Below the pieces are notes generated by a model. It did no database searches. It had not been told where the DNA came from and worked only from the letters and a program-made list of their open reading frames with translations. Shown piece by piece: positions 1,509 through 16,839 of a stretch of DNA of 20,000 nucleotides (the stretch's first letter is position 1; every line of letters starts with the position of its first letter). The DNA is from an uncultured virus (IMG/VR IMGVR_UViG_3300044996_000468) (Duplodnaviria > Heunggongvirae > Uroviricota > Caudoviricetes), in the IMG/VR virus record IMGVR_UViG_3300044996_000468, positions 58,627 to 78,626 of that record, one strand, 5' to 3'. The position numbers were made by a program, and so were the translations under genes.

Positions 1509-1829
1509 TTCTCGTTCTGACGAAAAGCCTCGACGACGGTGAAGACCGACGACGGTGAGGACTTGCGGAATTAGTCTTGCTTTGGTGCTTGCTTTAGTGA
1601 GTGCCTTTGTGCTGTGCTATAGCTCTCGACTTCTAGGGGAACCATGGGCACCAAAATCACGGCACTTGCCAAGGCGAAAAAGATCGGCATGTACGAAGAC
1701 GCCAAGAGGGCGATCTTCGTCAACGTCACCGAAATCGACATCGAGCGCGCGACATGCTTCGCGCCCGACCAGTGCGCAATGGCCAAGGCTGCTTGCCGCG
1801 CAATTCCGAATGCGTTGAGGGCCTTCTTC

Positions 1830-3020
1830 CATGCTTATCCGGTTAACACCCCAAACGTGATTTAGACACATGAGTACCGTACTGACACATCAAGTCACGA
1901 TCTGGATGGCAGGCGACAAGTTGTGCTGAACCTCGCGAACTGGCGTAAGTACCAGCACCTGTTTGTCCCTCCGTCCGATCGCCCGTGCATCGCTGGAGTC
2001 AGCGGTGGTTCGACGAGTGGTGTGATGGCCGCGCTGCTCTCGGCTGCCGTGCTCATGTCGTTCCAGAACACGGGCAAAGAGCACGCGCTGACTTACGAAT
2101 TCCTGGAGGCGCTCGCAGATGCTATCGGTCGCGAGATTGTCTGGTTGGAGTACCGCCCGCCCGCCTCGCGCGGGGCCCCGCCTGCGGCGGCACGTTTTGC
2201 AGTCGTAACACCGCGAACCGCTGATCGTAGCGGCGGACCGTTCGAGATGATGATGATGGACGCGATCAACGCATATCGCGCAGCCATCGGTAAGGGGCCG
2301 ATCGCGCCGTGGTGGCGCTCGCGCATCTGCACGACGTACATGAAGACGCGACTCGCGCGCCGCTACGTGGAGTCGCTTGGGTGGAACGGCCACGATGAAC
2401 TAGTGGGGCTTCGTGCCGACGAGCCCGATCGTGTGGCCAAACTCCGCGTGGGCGTCCCCAAGCGAATCGGTCGCCATGCGCCGCTTAGCGTCGCTGGTTT
2501 CACGGCCAACGATGTAGCTGCGTTCTGGGGTGAGCAGTCGTTCAGGCTCAACCTGCCGCCTCACCTCGGCAACTGCACTGGATGCTTTCTAAAGGACCAG
2601 GCCGACCAAAGCCGCGCGCTCGACCAGAATGGCGACGTCGATTACTGGGCGGGTATGCAGGAGCGGCATCCGGGATTCGGCGGCAAGAATCACCCCGGCT
2701 ATCGTCGGCTCGCAGCCGAGGCGCCATCGCGTTACGCGATTGAGGCGGCACTGTTGGCCGGGCGAACGCCCGATAACGAGAACGGTATGGAGTCTCGTCG
2801 GTTCAAGCTTGTTGTCATCCAGGAGCGCAAGCGGCTAGCCGGACAGGTGGCGCCGTTCTCGTGTGCGTGCGAGGGCTCCGACGCACTAGCGCAGATGGAC
2901 GACGACGAAGAGAACGCATACATCGCATCACTACCAAGTGAGGACGCGGCATGAAGAGTGCCAATTCACAATCTAACAAGGACGGTCAGACCTGTTATGG
3001 GTGCCAACCGGATAAGCATG
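1830..3020. mobile_element. Non-autonomous TIR element (mobile-cassette-like) carrying a PAPS-reductase-family gene, no transposase
   Basis: Left end CATGCTTATCCGGTTAACACCC (1830-1851) and reverse complement of the right end CATGCTTATCCGGTTGGCACCC (2999-3020) match at 20/22. An 8-bp direct repeat CCTTCTTC lies at 1822-1829 and 3021-3028. Confidence 0.9.
1923..2954 (+). CDS. Phosphoadenosine phosphosulfate (PAPS) reductase-family / PP-loop protein
   Basis: PP-loop-like GVSGGSTSGVM, plus FQNTGKEH, RICTTYMK, VGLRADEPDR and GNCTGCFLK, as seen in phage PAPS-reductase-like proteins. Confidence 0.8.
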   Translation: MLNLANWRKYQHLFVPPSDRPCIAGVSGGSTSGVMAALLSAAVLMSFQNTGKEHALTYEFLEALADAIGREIVWLEYRPPASRGAPPAAARFAVVTPRTADRSGGPFEMMMMDAINAYRAAIGKGPIAPWWRSRICTTYMKTRLARRYVESLGWNGHDELVGLRADEPDRVAKLRVGVPKRIGRHAPLSVAGFTANDVAAFWGEQSFRLNLPPHLGNCTGCFLKDQADQSRALDQNGDVDYWAGMQERHPGFGGKNHPGYRRLAAEAPSRYAIEAALLAGRTPDNENGMESRRFKLVVIQERKRLAGQVAPFSCACEGSDALAQMDDDEENAYIASLPSEDAA

Positions 3021-3330
3021 CCTTCTTCTACGAGAATGCTGTGTACATCGCATACTACGACACGAAGACAAAGAAGAAGAGGACCTTGCGCTTCATTCCT
3101 TCACCGGAAGCGCGGAAGAACATTCATACCTTCGACACGACCGGGAAGTTCTCTCCAGGACGCTACCGGCTGGACGCACCCAAGGGTTCGGACACGCTGG
3201 CCAGCATTCGTGAGCGGAGTCGACGTCGTCCTGGTCGACATCCTCCGAGCAACAAGCCGGTGATCAAGCGCGCTGTCAAGGCTACCGTCAAAGGGCGTCT
3301 GCAGTACGCCTACGCCTACTAGCCGAGACC

Positions 3331-3792
3331 GTGAAGACCGACGACGAGATCAGTCACGCGATCGCGCGAGCACACAGCGACGAAGCCGTGTTCGCTGACT
3401 ACCTGCGCGGCTTTGGTCTCGTCGTCGATACACTCTCCCGCGGTTTTCGAAAGTCGCTCGACGACATCGCGCAGTACGCCCACGACGTCGACCTGCAAGT
3501 CGCCGGCTACGCTTGCCAGTACAAGCATCGCGGCAACGCGCGGCTCGCGTACATCGTCAGGAACTACTGGGGGCCGTTCCTCGACGAGAAGCAGAAGGCC
3601 GATCGCACGCCGGTCGACTTCTACATCCTCGACTTCACCGACGCGACAGTGATCGCACCGTATGCACCGGATCTGTGGAAAGTCCAGACCAACGACGATC
3701 GATCGGACCGAGCACGCGCGAAACAGTTCTACATCGTGAACATCCGCGACTGCGTCCAGCTGCAAGCCTGGATCGACTGGCTCAGAAGCTGA
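3331..3792 (+). CDS. Hypothetical protein, possible PD-(D/E)xK nuclease fold
   Basis: 153-aa ORF with GC3-rich codons. E in an N-terminal helix and DVDL...QYK spacing resemble the PD-(D/E)xK motif; the fold assignment is tentative. Confidence 0.6.
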   Translation: MKTDDEISHAIARAHSDEAVFADYLRGFGLVVDTLSRGFRKSLDDIAQYAHDVDLQVAGYACQYKHRGNARLAYIVRNYWGPFLDEKQKADRTPVDFYILDFTDATVIAPYAPDLWKVQTNDDRSDRARAKQFYIVNIRDCVQLQAWIDWLRS

Positions 3793-3828: not shown

Positions 3829-3925
3829 GGCTTGACTTGTCAGGTACATCTGCGAAACGTTCAGTTCCAGTAGAGAACGGCTTGACTCGTCGAAGTCGTG
3901 CGTGAGAGGTTCAGTTCGAGTAGAG
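3829..3925 (+). promoter_or_regulatory. Tandem imperfect 50-bp duplication upstream of cas3 (putative promoter/operator)
   Basis: GGCTTGACTYGTC at 3829 and 3879, and GTTCAGTTCSAGTAGAG at 3859 and 3909. The sequence between the blocks differs. Each unit contains a TTGACT -35-like hexamer. Confidence 0.5.
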
Positions 3926-3945
3926 CGCGACAATTTAGGGAGCAC

Positions 3946-6051
3946 ATGAAGAGCACGAGGCTAGGGCCTCGGTCACTCACTGCCCGTAGGGTTCGGGACG
4001 TTGAGCGACCACTGGTCGAGGACATTCTTGCGACCGCAGATCGTGGAGCCGCTCTCGCCGTAGCGTTCGGTGCGCAGGAAACTCGCGCTGTCTGTCTTTG
4101 GTCGGATATCGGCAAGGCATCCGAGTCCTGGCAGATCCAGCAACGCGGGTCGAAGTACGGCCTACGTATTAACCATGTTGGATTAGGCGTTTGGCACACC
4201 TTACGCGTTCCCGGCATCCCGTCCATGCAACGATTGGCAATCGCTGTCGCGATCGCCGGTCACCATGGTGGTCTCCCAGACGCAAGTTACCTACCTGCAC
4301 TGGCAGATGAGAGCGCACCGCTTCGAGAGGCGCTGATCGATCTTCCCGACGAGATCACTGCCCTTCCCGTAATGCGACAACGTCGGTTCGCAAACGCGAC
4401 GCATTTGTTCATGTTCACGCAGATGATCGCGTCGGCACACATCGACGCCGACTGGCAAAACGCGGCGGAATGGGAGCGAGAAGTCTGTGGTGCGCCCATC
4501 ACACGACCTTCGTATCCGAGCATCGAACAGCTCTACCGACAGTTGGAGAGCGTGTGCAGTGACACACGGCTCGATCGGAGCGATCTCCGTACTGCGTTCC
4601 GTTTGCACTATCTAAGTGCCGCTGAACGTGTTCCGGGGTTCTATTCGTTCTCAGCCCCTCTCGGTGCGTTCAACGTCGAAGCCTTGGCGCTGTACGGGCT
4701 GGCACACGCGCGACGCAACGCACGAGAAAGGGTCATCCTTGTCTGTTCGACGCAGATGATGTTCGAAGAGTGCACAGACAAGCTTCGTGCCTCTCTCGGA
4801 GACGCATTCGCAGAGCCCGCCGCGTTCGACGTCCAAAGTTGTGGGTTCAGTCCTCGTGTCGAGACCTGGGACGCTCCTGTCGTCGTTACCGCGCTTCGAG
4901 ATTTCTTAGGGCTCCTCTTTGACAATCGTCCAGCGTCTCTGCGACGTTTCCATCACCTCGCACGCGCAGTGGTCGTTGTCGTCGACGCACAACAGATCCC
5001 GTTGCCCGTGCGCACGTTGACCCGCGAAGCGTTACAAGTACTCGTTGATCATTTCCACGCTTCGGTGTCGCTCGTGTCGGCGGTCCCCTACGGAGTCGCG
5101 GAGGACGATCGACCAGAGTTGTTGGGGCCAAAGGACGCCTTCAACACGGTCTACGGAGAGATTCAGACCACATGGCCCGATCATCACGAACCGTTACCCT
5201 CCGCCGTACAGATCGCACACGAGATCGCCGAGCACGCTGAGTGTTTGACGGTTCTCCAAGATGCATCCAGATTGCGTGAGGTAGCACAAGCGATGAGGGC
5301 GTACGTCCCCGACGTCCAGGTCACTGCCGTGTCGTCTCGGATGTGTGCTGAACATCGTCGTGCGGTGATACGTAACCTTCGTGGAGGGTGTATCATCGCC
5401 GACGAAATCGGGAGTGCTCTCGCGAGGACGTTCAATACGGTCCTGTGTGAGATGACCGAACTGCCGACCATGGCCGCTGCTGCCTGTCGTGCGTTTGGTG
5501 ACGGTCAGCGGCGTGCAAACTTCAAAGTTCTTCTCTCGACGAGACGTACGGCTGGAGCTGTCGTCACGCACCTCATGTGGCGAGGTCGTTCAACACTGGC
5601 GTTTCAGGATCCCGCAACCTGGCGCGAGTACTTTCTGGACTTGCGCTCCGGGGTTCTACCAAACGATCGGCAGTGGGCCGACGCTCGTCAGGCGGACGTC
5701 GAGTGTCTTCGGTTCCGAACACTGGCCGCGGAAATGTTGCGTGTCGGCAAACGCTGCGCGGCACCTGTGAGCCTTGGGTTGGGAGAAGCCAGCCTAGTCC
5801 CGGTCGTCGTTCCTATGCCACTGCCGAGGGGTGGCTCCAGACCGGCGACCAAAGCCTTGATCGACAGGCTTCGTGCAGACGGTTCAAGTCAAGAAATTCT
5901 ACGTCGACTCATGAGCTACGTCGTGTGGATCTCCGTCGACGAGCGCACACAACTTCTTCGCGACGGTCATGCTGTCTGGGTCAGCGAGGCCGTGGTCTAT
6001 GTGATCAACGAGCTTCTGTACGATGAATTTGGGCTGAAGCCACTAGCCTAG
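3946..6051 (+). CDS. cas3: Type I-C Cas3 (HD plus SF2 helicase), predicted catalytically inactive
   Basis: Cas3 scaffold motifs DIGK, AIAGHHGGLPD, IDADW, ETWDAPVVVT, LFDNRP..LRRFHHLARAVVV and C-terminal LRRLMSY...YDEFGL. ATG 3946 follows an AGGGAG RBS. Lies upstream of cas5c. Confidence 0.9.
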   Translation: MKSTRLGPRSLTARRVRDVERPLVEDILATADRGAALAVAFGAQETRAVCLWSDIGKASESWQIQQRGSKYGLRINHVGLGVWHTLRVPGIPSMQRLAIAVAIAGHHGGLPDASYLPALADESAPLREALIDLPDEITALPVMRQRRFANATHLFMFTQMIASAHIDADWQNAAEWEREVCGAPITRPSYPSIEQLYRQLESVCSDTRLDRSDLRTAFRLHYLSAAERVPGFYSFSAPLGAFNVEALALYGLAHARRNARERVILVCSTQMMFEECTDKLRASLGDAFAEPAAFDVQSCGFSPRVETWDAPVVVTALRDFLGLLFDNRPASLRRFHHLARAVVVVVDAQQIPLPVRTLTREALQVLVDHFHASVSLVSAVPYGVAEDDRPELLGPKDAFNTVYGEIQTTWPDHHEPLPSAVQIAHEIAEHAECLTVLQDASRLREVAQAMRAYVPDVQVTAVSSRMCAEHRRAVIRNLRGGCIIADEIGSALARTFNTVLCEMTELPTMAAAACRAFGDGQRRANFKVLLSTRRTAGAVVTHLMWRGRSTLAFQDPATWREYFLDLRSGVLPNDRQWADARQADVECLRFRTLAAEMLRVGKRCAAPVSLGLGEASLVPVVVPMPLPRGGSRPATKALIDRLRADGSSQEILRRLMSYVVWISVDERTQLLRDGHAVWVSEAVVYVINELLYDEFGLKPLA

Positions 6052-6105
6052 GTGGCTGGTCTTCCGAGCAGGTTCGCAGGGAAAGTAGGCTAGGTACGCC
6101 TTAAA

Positions 6106-6118
6106 AATCAAGGACTTA
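6106..6118 (+). promoter_or_regulatory. IHF consensus site in the cas3-cas5 intergenic region
   Basis: AATCAAGGACTTA matches WATCAANNNNTTR exactly, within a locally AT-rich patch. Confidence 0.45.
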
Positions 6119-6178
6119 CGAGTTTACTCTCGACAGAACGGACGCCTCGCGCGTCGTAGACAACAACAGGGAGAGCAC

Positions 6179-6814
6179 ATGAAACGGAGCAGTGTACTTG
6201 CACTACGCGCAATGGGGCGGCGCGCGTGTTGGACGAACCATCTTTGTCGTGTCGAACGACAGACATACGACATTCCTACGCCGTCTGGCGCTGTAGGGGT
6301 GTTCGAAGCTGTCAATTGGCATCCCGGAATGCATTGGGAGCTGCACAAAATCTGGGTACTCAAGCCCATTCAGCACTTTTCACTGCGCACGAACGAGGTG
6401 AAGTGTTTCGCAGGCCGCCAGCCAATCAACATCGACAGCAATCGGACGCAGCGCAATACCGTCGGGCTCTACGACGTCGACTACATCTTCGAGGCCAGCT
6501 TCGTACTGGACGCGCGTGCGTCTCACGACGTCGCGACCAACGAAGACATCTTTCGTCGGCGCGTCAAGAACGGTGCCTGCTATCACACGCCGTATCTGGG
6601 GATGCACCCCTTTATCTGTGACGTGATGGCGCCGCCTGCCCAGTATACGCCGATTCGCCTGAGTCGGAGTTTTGGGCGAATGTTGTACGGGTTCGACTAC
6701 ACGAATAAGAAGCCGACGCCGCTCTACTTCGAAGCCTCGATGGAGAACGGTGTCGTGCAGATCCCTTCGCGTGAATACGTTCTTCAGAACCAAGGGATCA
6801 ACCATGTTCCGTGA
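6179..6814 (+). CDS. cas5c: Type I-C Cas5c (Cas5d)
   Basis: Motifs G..ACWT..RVERQTYDIPTPSGA.G.FEA..W.P, VLKPI, RTNEVK, RTQR....LYDVDY, FRRR..G.CYHTPYLG, FGRMLY.FDY and FEA.MENGV..P. Confidence 0.95.
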   Translation: MKRSSVLALRAMGRRACWTNHLCRVERQTYDIPTPSGAVGVFEAVNWHPGMHWELHKIWVLKPIQHFSLRTNEVKCFAGRQPINIDSNRTQRNTVGLYDVDYIFEASFVLDARASHDVATNEDIFRRRVKNGACYHTPYLGMHPFICDVMAPPAQYTPIRLSRSFGRMLYGFDYTNKKPTPLYFEASMENGVVQIPSREYVLQNQGINHVP

Positions 6815-8816
6815 GTTGTACGAATTCGCCCAGCGCAACCGATTAGCAGACCCCGGCTTTCAGAATCGATTCGTCCATTACGAGATCGTCCTCGACGAGA
6901 ACGGTCGATTGATCTCAGGACATCGGATCGACGCAGAAATGCGCGCCCCCATGATGCCGAACAGGGCTGGTACCATCGTCCGTCCACAAGCTTGCATCGA
7001 ATCGGTGCAGTACATCCTTGGGCACGTCCTCGCAAAGCCGGGGGAGGACCCGCACAAGAAGCAAGAGCGTGCAGTGATTCTCTTCCGGGGACACTACGCG
7101 CACGTACACCGTATGGCGGAGGAAACCGGCGATCCCTACGCTCGGGCGTTGGCCAACTTCGTACGAGACGTCGACAATGGTGTCTATGGTCCGCCTCAAC
7201 AGGCCGCCGAACGCTGTTTGGGATGGACATCTGTCGACGAACCGCTTACCGGCAGTGAGTGGTGTGTCTTCGCCGTCAAGGAACCGGATCAGCCGAAGTA
7301 CTACATCCACGATCGGCCGGCGGTCTCACAGTGGCTTCGCGCGAACCGGCCCACTGCCGACAGCGACGTTGTTATCACATGCGCTGTGACAGGTCGCCAA
7401 GACAAACTCTGTATGACGTGGAACAAGGTCAAAGGCATTCCTGGTACGCAAGGGTCAACTCTCGTTTCGTACAACCATGCCCCGTGGACTTCCTACGGCT
7501 TCGACCAAGGGGAAAACTCCCATACGGGACGGGACACTGCAGAGGCCATTGTCGAAGGGCTCAACTATCTTCTTCGACCGGTGGAAGTCCCTTACACGCG
7601 GCGGAACTCGAAGACCGAGGAGATCGAGACGCGTGTGCGGATCAAACCGTACGGCGGCGTCTACCCCTTTAGCTTCGGTGCGCCGCAAAAAGGAGCCACA
7701 GTATTCGTTTGTTGGACGGCGGAGAAGGACGTCGAGCTGACGGTTCGTGGCGGTCTCACAGCTCTGTTCTCTGGCGGCGGCGAGGTCGAGACGTTACTCG
7801 ATATCGAACACGCGAGTGAGTCGGCCGTCGAAAAGCTACTTCGGACCGAGACGAACGATCCGCAGATCATCCACGATCTGCTCGCAGTGCATCGCACAGG
7901 TCGTGCGATGCCACAGTTCAACGAGGGCGCTTTTCACGCGTTGTTGCTCTCGGATAATCAACGCGTCGTGCCGCGCAGCACGCTGATCGGTACGATCGGT
8001 GAGCTGCGCGCCAAGATTCAAAAGTACGTCGACGACATGCGGCTGCCGACGGTCAACCGTGTTCCGCCCCTAACCAAGATCTTTGAAGCGCTTCGCGCAC
8101 GTGATCGAGAGCAGTTCACAGCAAGGACCACCGACAACATGCTGCGCTGCGTACTCGAAGGCGCCCCCGTGCCAGCTGAACTCGCAGCCGCCGCGCTCAA
8201 GCGATGCAACACCTATCCTTCCAATAAGGATGCGAGGAAACGGTGGAAGCGCCTGCTTCCGATTCGGATCAGCATCCTGAAACTCGATCTCGTCAGGAAA
8301 GGACTTGAACCACACGTGCAGAAAAATCCGTTCGACAACCTCGAAGAGACACACATCGCGAACGTACTCGGTTACGTCATGGCCGAGTGTAATCGCGTCC
8401 AACGCTGGGCCCTTGGCCCAGTGCAGCGTTCCAGCCTGTCACGCACGGACATCGTCCAGGCGCCACACAACGTACTCGCGGCGATTCTGACGAAGTACGA
8501 GAAGCACACCTCCAGTGCCAAGATCAGGAAACAATCCGGTCCGTCCAAGGAACGAATGGGACGTCTGATGACGCGACTCGGCGACGAGATGCTACCGGTA
8601 CGACTCGGTGCCGAAGAGCAGACTCGATTCTGGATTGGCTACTACACCTACGAGAGGTGGATGAAGGAGCACTTGGCGGCGAAGGCGGCGGCGAAGGCAG
8701 CTGCTCAGGCCGCTCAGGCCGCTCAGGCCGCTCAGGCTGCTCAGGCCGCTCAGGCCGACGAGGACACGGACACCGATGAAGACGTAGACGTAGACACCGA
8801 CGACATGTCCCAGTAA
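6804..8816 (+). CDS. cas8c: Type I-C large subunit Cas8c (Csd1) with an Ala/Gln repeat and acidic C-terminal tail
   Basis: Start set at ATG 6804 (MFRELYEFA), which overlaps the cas5c end. Motifs CAVTG, KVKGIPG...LVSYN...SYGFDQGEN...LNYLL, and a Cas11-like C-terminus LGYVMA...EEQTRFWIGYY. Confidence 0.92.
   Translation: MFRELYEFAQRNRLADPGFQNRFVHYEIVLDENGRLISGHRIDAEMRAPMMPNRAGTIVRPQACIESVQYILGHVLAKPGEDPHKKQERAVILFRGHYAHVHRMAEETGDPYARALANFVRDVDNGVYGPPQQAAERCLGWTSVDEPLTGSEWCVFAVKEPDQPKYYIHDRPAVSQWLRANRPTADSDVVITCAVTGRQDKLCMTWNKVKGIPGTQGSTLVSYNHAPWTSYGFDQGENSHTGRDTAEAIVEGLNYLLRPVEVPYTRRNSKTEEIETRVRIKPYGGVYPFSFGAPQKGATVFVCWTAEKDVELTVRGGLTALFSGGGEVETLLDIEHASESAVEKLLRTETNDPQIIHDLLAVHRTGRAMPQFNEGAFHALLLSDNQRVVPRSTLIGTIGELRAKIQKYVDDMRLPTVNRVPPLTKIFEALRARDREQFTARTTDNMLRCVLEGAPVPAELAAAALKRCNTYPSNKDARKRWKRLLPIRISILKLDLVRKGLEPHVQKNPFDNLEETHIANVLGYVMAECNRVQRWALGPVQRSSLSRTDIVQAPHNVLAAILTKYEKHTSSAKIRKQSGPSKERMGRLMTRLGDEMLPVRLGAEEQTRFWIGYYTYERWMKEHLAAKAAAKAAAQAAQAAQAAQAAQAAQADEDTDTDEDVDVDTDDMSQ
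8316..8816 (+). CDS. cas11: Putative internally translated Cas11c
   Basis: In-frame GTG at 8316 follows AGGAAAGGA (8295-8303) and lies just before the LG(R/Y)xxA helix, where I-C Cas11 normally starts. Confidence 0.5.
   Translation: MQKNPFDNLEETHIANVLGYVMAECNRVQRWALGPVQRSSLSRTDIVQAPHNVLAAILTKYEKHTSSAKIRKQSGPSKERMGRLMTRLGDEMLPVRLGAEEQTRFWIGYYTYERWMKEHLAAKAAAKAAAQAAQAAQAAQAAQAAQADEDTDTDEDVDVDTDDMSQ
8703..8756 (+). repeat. 6 x 9-bp tandem repeat (GCTCAGGCY) encoding (AQA)n in the cas8c tail
   Basis: Read directly from the sequence. Confidence 0.95.
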
Positions 8817-8900
8817 CTCACAAACGTCGACGACGATGTCGTCGTCGTAGATACAAATACGCACGCAACACAGAGCAGTAGAGAGAAGGGAAAGAGACCA

Positions 8901-10082
<1,182 letters not shown>

Positions 10083-10261
10083 CAACGAGCGCCTTGGTGC
10101 GAGGCGAGTTACCAGAACCGCTCGCATGATCTAACACCGCGCAAGTCCTGACGTAACACGGTTCTCTGATAACCGAATAGCAGCACAAAAGAAGCGTTTA
10201 TGGGCGTCGCTCGCTAGGCATCACCTAACGAACAGCGCCAGTTGTCTTTTCAGAAAGTGTT
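10083..10261 (+). promoter_or_regulatory. Putative CRISPR leader
   Basis: About 180 bp, non-coding and lower in GC, between the cas7 stop and the first repeat. The GAAAC 3' end of the repeats implies + strand transcription. Confidence 0.7.
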
Positions 10262-13200
10262 GTCGTGATCGAGATCGATCACGGCGTGGGTAGAAACTTG
10301 AGGTTGGGCCTCATCCACAGGCACCGCGGTCGGGGGTCGTGATCGAGATCGATCACGGCGTGGGTAGAAACAACGATCGCTACTTCGATGGCCGAACCGT
10401 CGGCGTGTTTCCTCGCGCTTGATACGTGATCGCGTCGCGATCGACAACGATCACGACGCGGATAGAAACACGCGCAACCTCCGCGTGATGCCGTCCGGCT
10501 CCCTGGGTCGCGATCGACAACGATCACGACGCGGATAGAAACGCGGCGCCCTGGACGACCTTCACCGTACGGATGACGCGGGTCGCGATCGACAACGATC
10601 ACGACCGTGGATAGAAACCTCGCAGACGCCGAGTACACATACGCGTCGTGCGCGGTCGCGATCAATCAATCTAAATCGCGACGTGGATAGAAACACCGCG
10701 GGTGGTAGCGACGGCGACGGTCCAGCACCGGTCGCGATCGATTCAGATCGCGGCGCGGATAGAAACACGCTGGACGACGGGCCTACGACGACAAGGGCAA
10801 TCATGGGTAGAAACCAGATTTCAACCACCTTGCGTGCGACAACCTGCGTCGGCAGTCGTGATCGATCAGGATCGCGACGTGGATAGAAACAACTGCAGGG
10901 AGTTGCCGTCGGGCAATTTGGTCGATCAGGATCGCGATGTGGGTAGAAACACCACGCGCGCCGCCAGCCAGCGCTCGATTTCCGCGCGGTCGTGATCGAT
11001 CAGGATCGCGACGTGGGTAGAAACTGTTCGGCGACCGCATGTGCGACGGCCTCGGGTGGTAGTCGTGATCGATCAGGATCGCGACGTGGGTAGAAACGTC
11101 GACGACGTGGCCCGGCGCGTGATCCCCGTCGACGTCGCGATCGACCAAGATTGCGACGTGGGGTCGATCACCAGCCCCGTAATCAACCGCGATCACGGTG
11201 TGGATAGAAACGTGAGCGGCGAAAAGCCGCTACTGAAGGAAGGCGTCGTGGGTCGCGCCGCGGATAAAAACAGTTCGAGTGGTGTCGTTGGTGGTGTAGC
11301 GTGCTGGGTGTCGTCGTGATCGATCGAGATCACGCCGTGGATAGAAACCTGTGCGGTCGCGCTCGCCCTACGCGAGCCCCAAGGTTGCGCAGGTACGTGT
11401 AAGTCGTGATTCGATCAGGATCGCGACGTGGGTAGAAATTACGTCGACGCAGAGACCCGCAAGCTGGTGCGCAGCGCCGTCGTGATCGATCGCGATCATG
11501 ACTCCGCTCGCGCCGAGGTTAAACCAGTACGCGACCCAGATCTCGTTGCCAACGACCGTCGTGAATCGATCAGGATCGCGACGTGGATAAAAACGCCGTG
11601 TACGGCGTCTCGCCGATCCACTCCCACGTCGTCGTGATCGATCGCGATCGCAGACGAGGATAGAAACAGCGACGGGTAGTTGATCGAACCGACGGCGCCG
11701 CTCAGTCGCGATCGATCGCGGCGCGGCGCGGCGTGGATAGAAACAAGCGGGTCCGGCTCGCGCTGCACGTGTGGATGGAGGTCGTGATCGGCGGCGGTCA
11801 CGGCACGGATAGAAACTCGGCCTCGCTCCCCAGCGACGACTGGTACGCCACCTGTCGCGATCGACAACGATCACGACGCGGATAGAAACACCGGCGACGT
11901 GAAGATGCCGACGCTGAAGAAGCTCCGTCGCGATCGACAACGATCACGACGCGGATAGAAACTGGATGATCTCGTGGCCTTCGTCGGGACGCCACGGTGG
12001 TCGCGATCGACAACGATCACGGCGTGGGTAGAAACGAAAGAAGGGGAGAAGAGTCAGGAAAGCATCCTAACCGTCGCGATCGACAACGATCACGACGCGG
12101 ATAGAAACACACGTACGAGCGCGGTCATGTCCTGCACGAATCGCGATCGACAACGATCACGACGCGGATAGAAACGGCACGGGAGAGCACTTTGAATGGG
12201 AGGGCAAGATCAGTCGCGATCGACGCGCGGGCTCATCAGGTCGTGATCGATCAGGATCGCGATGTGGATAGAAACGGTCGCCGTACCAAGACATCACAGG
12301 CGAGGTCGCGATCGATCTGGATTGCAGCGCGGATAGAAACAGGTTGTACGCCCACCCGGGCGGAATACATTGCTGTAGTCGCGATCGATCGCGACGTGGA
12401 TAGAAACCCGGTCAAACTAGGTCCACCGCACGCCGGGCCGTTGGTCGTGATCGATCTGGATCGCGGCGCGGATAGAAACAAATCCTGAACTGGCGTCACC
12501 TCATTATAGAATACGGCGCGATCGATCTAGATCGCGGCGAGGATAGAAACAGCATGGCTACTTGAGTAGTCGATCTACGCTTATCTCGCGGCGTGGATAA
12601 AAAACGCGATCACCGTTTGGCGAATCACGGAGCACTGCTCATCGTGATCGACTCAGATCACGGCGTGGGTAGAAACAAGGAAATCGTCGCGAGCGATGAA
12701 ACCTCGGGATGTCGTGATCGACTTAGGAATCGTGACGTGGGCAGAAACATCGGCGTGATCGGGACGATCATTGCGAAACTCGTGGCTCTGCATCGCCGGT
12801 GGCGGCGTGTACTTGTCACGATCGATCACAGCGTGGATAGAAACATCTGTACGTACTCGTCAGCGCGAAGCTCCGCGCGGTCGCGATCGACAACGATCAC
12901 GACGCGGATAGAAACGATGCGAGGATATAGCGGAGCCCCGGCACCGAGCGTGTCGTGATCGATCGCGATCACGTGATTGATCAGGATCGCGGCGTGGGTA
13001 GAAACGTCGCGAAGGGCCTCGCGTTCCAGGTGCGTAAGCACGTCGTGATCGATCGCGATCACGGCGAGGATAGAAACAGCGACGGCAAGCTCTACAAGAT
13101 CAGGATCGACGTGGTCGTGATCGATCGCGATCACGGCGAGGATAGAAACCGCTGGACCGAGCGCCGTCGATTTTCAACCGCCCACACGTCGTGATCGACG

Positions 13201-13735
13201 CAGATCACGGCGCGGATAAAAACGGCGCCGTCGCGAACGGAGTCGACTTCTACGGCGAAGGTCGTGATCGTCGTCGTCGTGTTGGATCGCGACGCGGATA
13301 AAAACAAGAACATCCTGTACGGCGAGATCCTGTCCGCAACGTGGATATCATCGGTGGCAGTGTCGTCGTCGAGGAGTTGTCGTGGATCGCGGTGTGGATA
13401 GAAACGCGTCGCGTGGATAGAAACACGAGATCGATCAGGCAGGCGATCTGGATCGTGGCGCGGATAAACGAAAAAAGTGCGTCTTGCCGCGACCGAATGG
13501 GCGGTGACGTCGCGATCGATCTGAATCGCGACGCGGATAGAAACGTCGCGCAGTTCCAACCGGTTGCGCTGAGCGCGATCGCGATCTTGATCAATCGCGA
13601 CGCGATCGTGGATAGAAACCAGAAGTTGAACCGTACTTCGTCGAGATACGTCGCGGCGTGGATAGAAACGCGGCAGTCATCCCGAGGCCGGTCACGACGA
13701 TCGCGATCGATCGAGATCGCGACGTGGATAGAAAC
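10262..13735 (+). CRISPR. Type I-C-like CRISPR array, about 50 highly variable repeat units; consensus GTCGYGATC-N6-GATCRCGRC-GYGGRTAGAAAC (36 nt)
   Basis: Manual count gives about 47 handle-bearing units plus about 3 without a handle. Spacers are mostly 34-40 nt with outliers. Adjacent to cas7c, with GTCG start and GAAAC end as in I-C repeats. Confidence 0.95.
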
Positions 13736-13791
13736 CTCACCAGCTGCCTTCGTGATGCGGGAGTCGTATCAAGATCTATCGGTTGCAATTA

Positions 13792-16227: not shown

Positions 16228-16839
16228 ATGCTCGCCGTCACCTACTCGGGTTCTGGATTTGGTCAAGCCGGCTGCCCTGCCGGTCAGCACTCGTTCACGT
16301 TCCCGTGGGGCGTGAACACGTGTGTTGCCGACGACGCCGCACCGCCCGATACGAGCGCGATCTCTGCGGATTCGACGCCAACGTGTGCGGCGGGTCAGCA
16401 TCTCTTCACGTTCCCGTGGGGCGTGAGCACGTGCGTGTCGGACGACGCACCAGCCATCAACGTCAACGCAACGTCGCCCGATCAGACACCACAGTGTCCG
16501 GCGGGTCAGCACCTTTTCACGTTCCCGTGGGGCGTGAGCACGTGCGTGTCGGACGACGCACCAGCCATCAACGTCAACGCAACGTCGCCCGATCAGACAC
16601 CACAGTGTCCGGCGGGTCAGCACCTTTTCACGTTACCGTCGATCGGGCTGCTGCCTCCGGTGATGCAGTGCCAGCCGGATGTCGTACCCTCATCGAGGAA
16701 GTTCTTCGACGTGAAGAACCCGATCATGTGGGCGACGTTCGCGGGTGGTGCGGCCGTCGTCGGCCTCGGTATCTACGCGTTCAGATCACCCAAGCCGACC
16801 ACGGTTGCAGGTCGCCGTCGTCGCCCACGTCGCCGCTGA
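16228..16839 (+). CDS. Membrane-anchored protein with about 3.3 copies of a 37-aa Cys-containing repeat
   Basis: CPAGQHLFTFPWGVSTCVSDD... repeats, then a C-terminal TM segment (IMWATFAGGAAVVGLGIYAF) and an Arg-rich tail. Confidence 0.8.
   Translation: MLAVTYSGSGFGQAGCPAGQHSFTFPWGVNTCVADDAAPPDTSAISADSTPTCAAGQHLFTFPWGVSTCVSDDAPAINVNATSPDQTPQCPAGQHLFTFPWGVSTCVSDDAPAINVNATSPDQTPQCPAGQHLFTLPSIGLLPPVMQCQPDVVPSSRKFFDVKNPIMWATFAGGAAVVGLGIYAFRSPKPTTVAGRRRRPRRR
16273..16632 (+). repeat. 111-bp intragenic tandem repeat
   Basis: GCGGGTCAGCA recurs at 16390, 16501 and 16612. Units 2 and 3 are nearly identical. Confidence 0.9.

What the first reader, a model, noticed from the sequence alone, without database searches (positions are those of the whole stretch)
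1822..3028. Transposase-less TIR cassette mobilising a PAPS-reductase-family gene, inserted into a phage gene
Seen: a 1191-bp segment with 22-bp TIRs (20/22, CATG...CATG termini) and a perfect 8-bp duplication CCTTCTTC. Precise removal restores one 159-aa ORF. The only complete gene inside is the PP-loop/PAPS-reductase-like ORF. Known: IS231-derived mobile insertion cassettes (IS4 family, CAT termini) carry passenger genes without a transposase, and PAPS-reductase-like domains occur in DNA-modification systems such as DndC. Inference: a recent, trans-mobilised cassette is spreading a putative DNA-modification or sulfur-transfer enzyme.
Basis: partly seen in the sequence, partly recalled or inferred. 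Interest (0 to 1): 0.78.

Follow-up and report, generated by a model that had tools for sequence, protein, structure and literature searches.

The report
Transposase-less IS1595 gene cassette in phage
A 1.2-kb jumping-gene cassette that has no transposase of its own has dropped a DNA-modification-type enzyme gene into the middle of a small gene of a large lake-water phage, and it belongs to a big family of such cassettes that move single accessory genes between phages.

Summary
Window 1830-3020 is a 1191-bp element. Its inverted ends match 23/27, with the first 15 nt identical. It is flanked by a perfect 8-bp duplication (CCTTCTTC). Removing it restores a 159-aa ORF, and an uninterrupted homologue (P0002) spans the junction without a gap.

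The element is not IS4/IS231-like. The same 15-nt end bounds at least 62 distinct elements in viral contigs that encode IS1595-family transposases (Zn ribbon + DDE), and dozens of transposase-less one-gene cassettes. About 82 distinct copies have perfect 8-bp duplications. Identifiable cargoes are mostly DNA-modification genes: several methyltransferase classes, Mom-like, NADAR.

The cargo here is a 343-aa PP-loop enzyme with the PAPS/APS-reductase fold, conserved cysteines, and matches to phrog_424 and SspD. Four other family elements carry diverged versions. One is a second transposase-less cassette (63% identical cargo) at an unrelated site.

The near-identical, complete 221-kb phage genome has no transposase and no other copy of the end, so any mobilisation needs an outside transposase. 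"Recent" is not shown, and cargo function (counter-defence by DNA thiolation or interference) is inferred.

This scan has noted the same cassette family before on other DNA. It is a new member of a known kind (mobile insertion cassette / transporter IS).

The parts
1644..1829 (+). 5' half (62 codons) of the interrupted phage ORF; as it stands it reads on into the left end and stops at 1863-1865 (73-aa ORF 1644-1865)
   Evidence: P0002 residues 1-62 align to it at 68% identity without gaps. No Pfam or PHROG family.
1822..1829 (.). left copy of the 8-bp target-site duplication CCTTCTTC
   Evidence: read directly
1830..3020 (+). the whole non-autonomous IS1595-type cassette (1191 bp, 61.4% G+C against 58.9% in 1.5 kb on either side)
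1830..1856 (+). left terminal inverted repeat (27 nt; first 15 nt CATGCTTATCCGGTT identical to the right end)
   Evidence: (I1). The same 15-mer bounds IS1595 transposase-bearing elements.
1870..1929 (+). 19-codon upstream ORF; it begins 4 nt after the stop of the broken host ORF and its stop overlaps the cargo start (possible translational relay; inference only)
   Evidence: read; not tested
1923..2954 (+). cargo gene: 343-aa PP-loop ATP-pyrophosphatase of the PAPS/APS-reductase fold (GTG start; motif SGGSTS at residues 27-32; conserved Cys 136, 218, 221, 314, 316)
   Evidence: phrog_424 E 7e-31. Pfam PAPS_reduct 18.4 bits, below the 22.5 cut-off. PADLOC SspD E 3.3e-8. Alignment A2. AF2 pLDDT 91.1. 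Fold matches.
2951..3322 (+). 123-aa ORF whose ATG overlaps the cargo stop (ATGA); it reads out through the right end, in frame, into the 3' half of the host gene
   Evidence: The same arrangement is seen in the sister cassette L440.
2994..3020 (-). right terminal inverted repeat
   Evidence: (I1)
3021..3028 (.). right copy of the 8-bp target-site duplication
3029..3322 (+). 3' half (97 codons + stop) of the interrupted phage ORF
   Evidence: P0002 residues 63-136 align to its residues 1-74 at 72% identity without gaps

Best explanation
Window 1830-3020 is a mobile insertion cassette, a transposase-less derivative of a passenger-carrying IS1595-family insertion sequence.

Shown: it has the family's conserved ends and an 8-bp target duplication. 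It sits inside a 159-codon phage ORF on the same strand. It carries one intact gene.

Inferred mechanism: an IS1595 DDE transposase made elsewhere (by a co-resident phage, prophage or host copy) binds the two ends and moves the segment by cut-and-paste or copy-out, with staggered 8-bp target cleavage. The family prefers A+T-rich, roughly symmetric targets (R-T-W-N-N-W-A-Y). The cassette has no recognisable promoter or terminator. The cargo is therefore probably transcribed from the host operon, and overlapping stop/start codons (ATGA at 2951-2954) may hand ribosomes on to the downstream half of the broken gene.

The cargo is a PP-loop ATP-pyrophosphatase of the PAPS/APS-reductase fold with a probable Fe-S site. 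It belongs to the phage 'PAPS reductase' family (phrog_424) and its nearest defence-system relative is SspD. I infer that it acts on nucleic acid, either by thiolation-type modification or by interference with phosphorothioate-based immunity, as a counter-defence accessory gene. It then belongs with the methyltransferase, Mom-like and NADAR genes that sister cassettes carry.
For: Ends and duplication.

Insertion into a real gene: removal restores 159 aa. P0002 (139 aa) covers both halves, residues 1-62 and 63-136, with no gap at the junction.

Family:
- There are 36 distinct +/- pairs of 184-1784 bp, and 27 of them have perfect 8-bp duplications.
- The three largest encode proteins with DDE_Tnp_IS1595 (E about 1e-32) and Zn_ribbon_IS1595 and NF033547 at 186 bits.
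- A search with these transposases gave 79 viral loci. In 67 of them end pairs (3 mismatches or fewer) bracket the gene. These make 62 distinct elements, and 49 have perfect 8-bp duplications.
- Pooled, 87 entries have perfect duplications, about 82 distinct after 5 duplicate pairs are removed. Sizes are 241-1191 bp and 1514-2563 bp.

Mobility in the family: L006 and L082 are 98% identical 365-bp cassettes with different duplications and unrelated flanks.

Mobility of this cargo type:
- L440 is a 1076-bp cassette with exact ends, the duplication GAAAGAAG, and a 63% identical cargo, sitting in an unrelated HNH-like ORF.
- Transposase-bearing elements L326, L278 and L325 carry phrog_424/SspD-like passengers.

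Trans-dependence: G000 and the complete 221-kb relative G001 have no transposase relative and only this one pair of ends.

Cargo:
- Sequence-family matches.
- Invariant PP-loop and cysteines in 36 homologues.
- AF2 model with pLDDT 91.1.
- Best folds are APS reductase 2goy (Z 11.5, rmsd 4.0, 182 aligned), PAPS reductases, [4Fe-4S] NcsA, LarE and TtuA.
- PMC13551039 (passages read) calls phage PAPS reductases DndC/SspD homologues found in anti-defence hotspots. It cites Piel 2022 for a phage PAPS reductase that promotes evasion of a host Dnd system.

No sigma-70-like promoter or terminator lies inside the cassette.
Against: - No near-identical second copy of this very cassette at another site was found. 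The three contigs with it are one population.
- No empty-site contig appeared in four further lake-water runs. These are contigs only, which drop rare variants.
- Transposition was not observed, and no donor transposase is identified for this phage or its unknown host.
- Of 80 viral loci and 80 metagenome loci encoding relatives of the cargo, only the window's own population and L440 are flanked by the ends. The gene family is mostly a resident phage gene.
- Pfam PAPS_reduct is below its cut-off. The SspD match is partial, 31.6 bits. All fold matches are tied within about 1 Z among PP-loop enzymes of many functions.
- The phage encodes no cysteine desulfurase, PF00266, so a complete thiolation pathway is not on board.
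- The translational-relay idea rests on two cassettes. My survey of 36 cassettes had no proper control.
Confidence: 0.85

Rival explanations
1. The cassette is an IS231-type (IS4-family) mobile insertion cassette.
For: It has CAT-type termini, no transposase and one passenger gene, which is the same layout as MIC231 (concept cited in PMC3129680, passages).
Against: All transposases found between these ends are IS1595 family. No IS4-type transposase was met. The duplication is 8 bp, the size given for IS1595 (PMC8101967, passages).
Confidence: 0.02
2. The cargo is an auxiliary metabolic gene, an assimilatory PAPS/APS reductase (CysH-like) that boosts host sulfate reduction, and has nothing to do with DNA or defence.
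For: The best fold matches are APS and PAPS reductases (2goy Z 11.5, 7rge Z 11.1, 6vpu Z 10.5). JGI names many homologues PAPS reductase. PHROGs files phrog_424 under auxiliary metabolic genes.
Against: Pfam PAPS_reduct scores below its cut-off. No ECGLH-type C-terminal motif of CysH (motif recalled) is visible in the sequence. Instead there are CxxC and CxC pairs conserved across 36 homologues. The nearest defence-library model is SspD. Within the cassette family the same slot holds methyltransferase, Mom-like and NADAR genes. The literature statement on an anti-Dnd role is in PMC13551039 (passages).
Confidence: 0.12
3. The insertion is an old, fixed and now immobile relic. The cassette was delivered long ago and is simply inherited by this phage lineage, so nothing is 'spreading' today.
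For: There is one copy per genome and no transposase in the complete 221-kb genome. No empty allele was seen in contigs of four further runs. The nearest other cassette with this cargo is only 63% identical.
Against: The duplication is perfect. Both ends keep the exact 15-nt transposase-type terminus. Both halves of the broken ORF are still open and gap-free against P0002. The family as a whole shows 98% identical copies at unrelated sites. Close relatives of the transposase are very common: 5903 cluster representatives at E<=1e-30 among 8000 candidates scored.
Confidence: 0.3
4. The inverted repeat and direct repeat are a chance arrangement around a resident gene.
For: None beyond the fact that short repeats abound in G+C-rich DNA (one search lists many repeats of 8-20 nt).
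Against: 0 of 200 shuffles give two copies of the 15-mer. The borders coincide exactly with an 8-bp duplication and with the break in a gene that is continuous in P0002. The same ends bound about 82 other elements with 8-bp duplications.
Confidence: 0.01

Closest known systems
IS1595-family insertion sequences, including 'transporter IS' with passenger genes (Siguier, Gagnevin & Chandler 2009; seen only as cited in passages of PMC3129680 and PMC7986276. Family features from passages of PMC8101967)
   Same: Same terminal inverted repeats as elements encoding Zn-ribbon + DDE_Tnp_IS1595 transposases. 8-bp target duplication. The full-length relatives carry one or two passenger genes beside the transposase gene.
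   Different: This copy has no transposase gene at all. The lineage was met here overwhelmingly in viral contigs: 136 of 171 ends fit the extended end pattern there, against 18 of 129 in bacterial genome hits. Its assignment to a named subgroup was not tested. ISSod11-like ends are my recollection of ISfinder.
Mobile insertion cassettes (MIC231 of IS231, Bacillus cereus group; De Palmenaer et al. 2004, seen only as cited in PMC3129680)
   Same: IS ends plus passenger gene(s), no transposase, target duplication, mobilisation expected from a cognate transposase in trans.
   Different: Different transposase family (IS1595, not IS4), 8-bp duplication, phage rather than bacterial or plasmid carrier, and cargo of DNA-modification type.
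Phage 'PAPS reductase'/NinC-like proteins (phrog_424) and the PP-loop enzymes SspD/DndC of DNA phosphorothioation systems
   Same: PP-loop motif, PAPS/APS-reductase fold, conserved cysteines. phrog_424 E 7e-31, SspD E 3.3e-8. tblastn hits at 28-33% identity to phage genes annotated PAPS reductase or NinC.
   Different: Stand-alone: no SspA/DndA-type cysteine desulfurase in the complete phage genome. Only partial, weak match to SspD, and none to DndC for the window's protein. Activity unknown.
Mycobacteriophage mobile elements (MPME1/2), small transposable elements in phage genomes (recalled, no call)
   Same: Short TIR-bounded elements that move between phage genomes.
   Different: As I recall, MPMEs are about 440 bp with their own small ORF and a different end sequence. 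There is no IS1595 relationship and no variable cargo. Not tested here.

Membership tests
IS1595 family (as a non-autonomous derivative) | 8-bp target-site duplication | tested here: met
   CCTTCTTC at 1822-1829 and 3021-3028. The family rule is in PMC8101967 (passages).
IS1595 family (as a non-autonomous derivative) | terminal inverted repeats shared with elements that encode an IS1595 transposase (Zn ribbon + DDE_Tnp_IS1595) | tested here: met
   The 15-nt end is identical to that of L027, L046 and L067. Their proteins hit PF12762 and PF12760 and NF033547 at 186 bits. 62 distinct transposase-bearing elements are bounded by the end with 3 mismatches or fewer. The closest ends are L333 at 26/30, and L320 and L323 at 25/30.
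IS1595 family (as a non-autonomous derivative) | own transposase gene | tested here: not met
   No transposase ORF in 1830-3020 and none in G000 or G001. It is therefore a derivative (cassette), not an insertion sequence proper.
IS1595 family (as a non-autonomous derivative) | actual mobilisation by an IS1595 transposase | not testable with these tools
   Indirect evidence only: the sister cassette L440 at another site, and 98% identical cassettes L006/L082 at unrelated sites.
Mobile insertion cassette (MIC) | IS-type ends and target duplication around non-transposase gene(s), with a cognate IS in existence | tested here: met
   Definition from passages of PMC3129680.
IS4 family / MIC231 | ends shared with an IS4-type (IS231) transposase-bearing element | tested here: not met
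   Every transposase found between these ends is IS1595 family.
PAPS reductase domain family (Pfam PF01507) | score above the curated gathering cut-off | tested here: not met
   18.4 bits against a cut-off of 22.5, covering residues 25-72 only. The passenger of L326 does pass at 29.6 bits.
PP-loop ATP-pyrophosphatase / PAPS-APS reductase fold | PP-loop motif and adenine-nucleotide alpha-hydrolase fold | tested here: met
   SGGSTS at residues 27-32, nearly invariant in 36 homologues. Model pLDDT 91.1. 2goy Z 11.5, 7rge Z 11.1, 6scy Z 10.6. Foldseek LarE/NcsA/TtuA at E about 6e-4 to 1e-3.
SspD / DndC (DNA phosphorothioation) | sequence match to the family model | tested here: inconclusive
   PADLOC SspD E 3.3e-8, 31.6 bits, in two partial stretches, and no DndC hit for the window's protein. 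PADLOC gives no curated cut-off.
SspD / DndC (DNA phosphorothioation) | partner genes (cysteine desulfurase SspA/DndA and the rest of the operon) nearby | tested here: not met
   No PF00266 match in G000 or the complete G001, while the control rings in 14 of 14 genomes. The cassette holds one gene only. Other Ssp/Dnd partners were not searched.
Assimilatory CysH | C-terminal redox motif (ECGLH, recalled) and enzymatic PAPS reduction | tested here: inconclusive
   No such motif is visible in the translation, but the motif is recalled, not taken from a call. Activity is not testable here.

The most novel reading that the evidence does not exclude
This IS1595 lineage is a phage-adapted gene-delivery system. 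Transposase-bearing 'mother' elements and their transposase-less one-gene cassettes would form an exchange network, functionally comparable to integron cassettes. The network would plug counter-defence and DNA-modification genes (methyltransferases, Mom-like, NADAR, SspD/PAPS-reductase-like) into operons of unrelated phages. Compact ends with overlapping stop and start codons would let the cargo and the broken host gene both be translated. The SspD-like cargo here would be a mobile counter-measure against phosphorothioate-based (Dnd/Ssp) immunity. In this case it is carried by a 221-kb phage that also encodes its own type I-C CRISPR-Cas system.
Probability: 0.4. Interest if true: 0.75.

Novelty: new member of a known kind. 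Interest (0 to 1): 0.6.

Why it matters
Insertion sequences are generally regarded as rare in phage genomes (my recollection, no call). Here one IS1595 lineage is common in uncultured phages. It demonstrably carries single accessory genes into new phage backgrounds.

This gives a concrete mechanism for how phages acquire and swap anti-restriction and DNA-modification genes. It also gives a simple sequence handle, the 15-nt end plus the 8-bp duplication, for finding fresh phage accessory genes, most of which have no known family.

For the 'phage PAPS reductase' question, cargo-slot sharing with methyltransferases and Mom-like genes is independent circumstantial evidence for a nucleic-acid or defence role rather than sulfur metabolism.

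I found no paper describing phage-borne IS1595 cassettes (searches; listings and abstracts only). Earlier notes of this same scan had already reported the family on other DNA.

Tried and rejected
- Own record and its complete relative: no second copy, no transposase.
- INPHARED phages: the family transposase hits only three unannotated gut-phage fragments at 27-36% identity, so cultured phages gave no partner.
- Genome-contig scan with the 15-mer: mostly single hits that I take for chance. About 1100 are expected in 596 Gb by my arithmetic. Only 18 of 129 ends fit the extended end pattern. A related multi-copy element with different subterminal sequence sits in Terriglobia MAGs, and no host could be named from this.
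- Empty site in reads: only Logan contigs were on offer. Four runs were laid. The contigs bridge both junctions of the occupied allele, and there was no joint across the element. This is no evidence either way.
- The search for related loci with the 3' half of the host gene in viral contigs found only the same phage.
- Relatives of the cargo at 52% identity or less (L441-443, L445-448, L458) and at 61% (L444, left side only) have no such ends and no other convincing flanking inverted repeat.
- PDB by sequence gave only insignificant ChaP hits. NCBIfam gave nothing for the cargo.
- Survey of stop/start spacing in 36 cassettes: many upstream frames stop within a few nt of the cargo start. Because cargo starts lie only 23-62 nt from the end, this could be trivial, so I draw no conclusion from it.
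- Papers not held: the FEMS review I tried by PMC id and Piel et al. 2022. What I say of the latter rests on the citing sentence in PMC13551039.
The protein-level test (P0002) replaced it.
Full report
**1. The observation**

The 22 bases from 1830 (CATGCTTATCCGGTTAACACCC) recur as a reverse complement ending at 3020, with 20/22 matches. The repeat finder extends the arms to 27 nt at 85% (1830-1856 and 2994-3020, I1). CCTTCTTC flanks the segment on both sides (1822-1829, 3021-3028), so the element is 1830-3020, 1191 bp.

The 15-nt terminus occurs exactly twice in the 20-kb window. It is expected 0.01 times, and 0 of 200 shuffles reached two copies. Cutting out 1830-3028 in a script gives one 159-codon frame from the ATG at 1644.

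Inside the element the only ORF with family support is 1923-2954 (343 aa). The other ORFs listed there overlap it or lie antisense.

**2. The broken gene is real and exists unbroken elsewhere**

A search of the 5.8-billion-protein collection with the 97 residues downstream of the element returned two proteins. One is the window's own 123-aa ORF. The other is P0002, a 139-aa metagenome protein.

P0002 residues 1-62 align to the 62 codons upstream of the element (68% identity, no gaps). Its residues 63-136 align to residues 1-74 downstream (72%, no gaps). The junction in P0002 falls exactly where the element sits.

Neither half has a Pfam or PHROG family.

**3. What the ends belong to**

In these I found 36 distinct plus/minus pairs 184-1784 bp apart, and 27 of the 36 have a perfect 8-bp duplication.

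The three largest (L067, L027, L046; 1729-1784 bp) each encode a protein of about 350 aa with these matches:
- Pfam DDE_Tnp_IS1595 (E about 1e-32) and Zn_ribbon_IS1595.
- NCBIfam 'IS1595 family transposase' at 186 bits against a cut-off of 75.

A search of viral contigs with their alignment gave 79 loci encoding relatives of 57-100% identity.
- In 67 of the 79, a pair of ends with 3 mismatches or fewer brackets the gene.
- These make 62 distinct elements of 1150-2636 bp.
- 49 of the 62 have perfect 8-bp duplications.

Twelve loci gave no pair. Several of those are cut by contig ends.

Pooling both sets at 2 mismatches or fewer gives 87 entries with perfect duplications, about 82 after five duplicate pairs are removed. 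They fall in two size classes: 241-1191 bp, which is too small for a transposase, and 1514-2563 bp.

The duplicated 8-mers are 64% A+T against 46% in the flanks. They follow a roughly symmetric R-T-W-N-N-W-A-Y pattern, as expected for a DDE transposase target.

According to PMC8101967 (passages read), IS1595-family members are usually flanked by 8-bp duplications and, apart from the IS1016 group, carry the N-terminal zinc finger plus the DDE_Tnp_IS1595 domain. All of this fits.

**4. Layout of the family**

In most transposase-bearing elements the transposase gene abuts one end. The 100-1200 bp between the other end and its start hold a co-oriented passenger ORF. This is the 'transporter IS' layout that PMC3129680 and PMC7986276 (passages) attribute to IS families including IS1595.

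Of 63 passenger ORFs scanned:
- C5 methyltransferase: L275, L319.
- N6/N4 methyltransferase: L301, L342, L351.
- A fragment of an XcyI-type restriction enzyme: L342.
- PAPS_reduct: L326 above the cut-off, L278 below it.
- DUF551: L315.
- A few weak hits.
- The large majority had no family.

Among 24 proteins of the first set, the transposase-less cassettes carried:
- N6/N4 methyltransferase: L080, L072.
- D12 methyltransferase: L014.
- NADAR, 94 bits: L017.
- A DUF1281_C protein: L054.
- A Mom-like protein: L055, phrog_1384 at E 6.6e-40.

The cassettes are compact. In 36 of them the longest ORF mostly starts 23-62 nt from one end and stops 5-68 nt from the other.

Two 365-bp cassettes (L006, L082) are 98% identical but have different duplications and unrelated flanks. 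Three transposase-bearing elements (L284, L285, L288) are 90-95% identical at three different sites. The family has therefore moved recently.

**5. This cassette's place in the family**

Its ends lie within the range seen in transposase-bearing elements: 26/30 to L333, 25/30 to L320 and L323.

The window is the last 20 kb of a 78.6-kb viral record rated 45% complete. A 221-kb record (G001, rated 100% complete) and a 33-kb metagenome contig (L438) carry the same insertion. They are 99.96-99.98% identical to the window over 5.4-6.3 kb, so they are one population and not independent events.

Neither G000 nor G001 encodes a relative of the transposase or holds another copy of the end. Any movement must therefore rely on a transposase from outside this genome.

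Close relatives of that transposase are very abundant in metagenomes. There are 5903 cluster representatives at E<=1e-30 among 8000 candidates scored. The top 120 are 65-97% identical (all but one 72% or more) and lie mostly on phage-sized contigs. A few lie in MAGs named Methylocella, Terriglobales and Proteobacteria.

**6. Is this cargo itself mobile?**

The cargo has at least 140 homologues of 42-94% identity. At least 434 viral and 401 metagenome stretches encode relatives.

Of the best 80 viral loci, only the window's own population has the ends. Of the best 80 metagenome loci, three have them: two are the same insertion, and the third is L440.

L440 is a separate 1076-bp cassette with the exact 15-nt ends and a perfect duplication GAAAGAAG. 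Its 343-aa cargo is 63% identical to the window's. It is inserted in an unrelated ORF that looks like an HNH endonuclease gene by eye.

Relatives at 52% identity or less, and one at 61% (left side only), lack the ends.

Three transposase-bearing elements (L326, L278, L325) carry further members of the same protein family, 23-39% identical to each other and to the window's.

So genes of this family have been taken up by the IS lineage several times, or very long ago, and at least two transposase-less cassettes with it exist. I could not examine the DNA around the 60-94% identical homologues, which come from collections I could not fetch. That is where proof of present-day spread of this very cassette would lie.

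**7. The cargo protein**

Sequence-family matches:
- phrog_424 'PAPS reductase', E 7e-31.
- Pfam PAPS_reduct, only 18.4 bits, below the 22.5 cut-off.
- PADLOC SspD, E 3.3e-8. L440 scores 2e-12, L326 3e-16, L278 3e-14, L325 3e-37.
- tblastn hits at 28-33% identity to phage genes annotated PAPS reductase or NinC, in Salmonella, Vibrio, Klebsiella and other phages.

In 36 aligned homologues the PP-loop (S27 G28 G29 T31 S32) and five cysteines (C136; C218 and C221 within the conserved stretch G-N-C-x-x-C-F-L-K-D; C314 and C316) are invariant or nearly so.

The AlphaFold model is confident (pLDDT 91.1, pTM 0.88).
- VIA-align against 48,161 chains ranks APS reductase 2goy first (Z 11.5, rmsd 4.0, 182 aligned).
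- It is tied within about 1 Z with plant APR-B, PAPS reductases, GMP-synthetase ATP-pyrophosphatase domains, the [4Fe-4S] tRNA thiolase NcsA and LarE.
- Foldseek puts [4Fe-4S] LarE, NcsA and TtuA on top (E 6e-4 to 1e-3, TM 0.32-0.48).

The protein is thus a PP-loop ATP-pyrophosphatase of the PAPS/APS-reductase fold, very probably with an Fe-S site. What it adenylates is not shown.

PMC13551039 (passages read) states three things. Phage PAPS reductases are predicted DndC/SspD homologues. They cluster in variable regions that are hotspots for anti-defence genes. A phage-encoded PAPS reductase promotes evasion of a host Dnd system (citing Piel et al. 2022, which I could not read).

The complete phage has no cysteine desulfurase and only this one copy of the family. 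The enzyme would therefore have to use host sulfur donors, or act by interference.

My inference is that this is a counter-defence or DNA-modification accessory gene, at about even odds. Plain sulfate assimilation is the main rival.

**8. Expression (inferred)**

The cassette lies on the same strand as the broken gene. It has no sigma-70-like promoter or terminator by the simple scan.

The order of reading frames is as follows (all read):
- The broken gene's frame stops at 1863-1865.
- A 19-codon ORF follows (1870-1929), and its stop overlaps the cargo's GTG at 1923.
- The cargo's stop overlaps an ATG (ATGA, 2951-2954).
- That ATG opens a frame running out through the right end, in phase with the 3' half of the host gene.

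In L440 the relay is tighter. The host frame's TGA overlaps the cargo ATG, and the cargo's TAG overlaps a GTG that reads out in phase.

Earlier notes of this scan proposed the same idea on other cassettes. I had seen the overlap before reading them (note). Two cases and an uncontrolled survey do not establish it.

**9. Comparison, novelty and verdict**

The element works like, and meets the tested criteria of, a mobile insertion cassette derived from an IS1595-family transporter IS. It fails only the criterion 'own transposase', which is what makes it a cassette.

It is not an IS4/IS231 derivative.

I found no paper describing IS1595 cassettes in phages (listings, abstracts and a few passages). 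This scan had already noted the family on other genomes (e1-3289275, e1-3446206, e1-6001497, e1-5895874, e1-5985775, e1-5917069, e1-6060575).

What this window adds:
- A new cargo class for the family (SspD/PAPS-reductase-like), with four further family elements carrying it.
- A clean protein-level empty site.
- A carrier that is a 221-kb phage with its own type I-C CRISPR-Cas locus, starting less than 900 bp downstream of the cassette.

I rate it a new member of a known kind, interest 0.6.

Noticed in passing
window 3898-13740: The phage carries what looks like a type I-C CRISPR-Cas locus just downstream of the cassette. Its parts are a Cas3 HD-domain protein (3898-6051; TIGR01596 E 7e-12), Csd1/Cas8c (6672-8816; E 1e-58) and Cas7 (8901-10082; E 2.5e-53). 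There is also a long array of 35 or more repeats of about 36 nt ending GGATAGAAAC, with a period of about 73 nt (about 10260-13740). The repeat has several diverged variants. The ORFs listed in the array region are probably spurious.
   Followed up: partly
L440 377-1862: The sister cassette sits inside an ORF that looks like an HNH homing-endonuclease gene. The host frame's stop overlaps the cargo ATG (ATGA). The cargo stop overlaps a GTG that reads out through the right end in phase with the rest of the host ORF.
   Followed up: partly
L342 126-2761 (also L345): A 2636-bp transposase-bearing family member carries an N6/N4 DNA methyltransferase (E 6e-48) followed by a 126-aa ORF matching the start of the XcyI restriction endonuclease (E 2e-20). 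This is a restriction-modification pair, or its remnant, as passenger.
   Followed up: no
L152, L159, L168, L171-173, L205, L206, L208, L213, L229 (Terriglobia and other Acidobacteriota MAGs): A related element with the same 15-nt end but another subterminal sequence (GTTTCAGCAAGCC...) is multi-copy, often at contig ends. L152 has three copies of the end in tandem 59 bp apart. L171, L178 and L227 hold pairs of ends only about 100 bp apart (MITE-like).
   Followed up: no
window 1829-1860 versus a 474-bp contig of run X12 (record 14): Another lake-water contig shares 31 of 32 nt with the window's left end but has different sequence on both sides. This points to a further family member with almost the same end in the same kind of habitat.
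   Followed up: no
window 1535-1554 and 3327-3346: A 20-nt direct repeat (95% identical, GAC[G/C]GTGAAGACCGACGACG) lies upstream of the broken gene and again just downstream of it, where it includes the GTG start at 3331. It may be a shared gene-start or regulatory motif.
   Followed up: no
window 16383-16639: A tandem repeat of a 111-bp unit, 2.3 copies, 97% matches.
   Followed up: no
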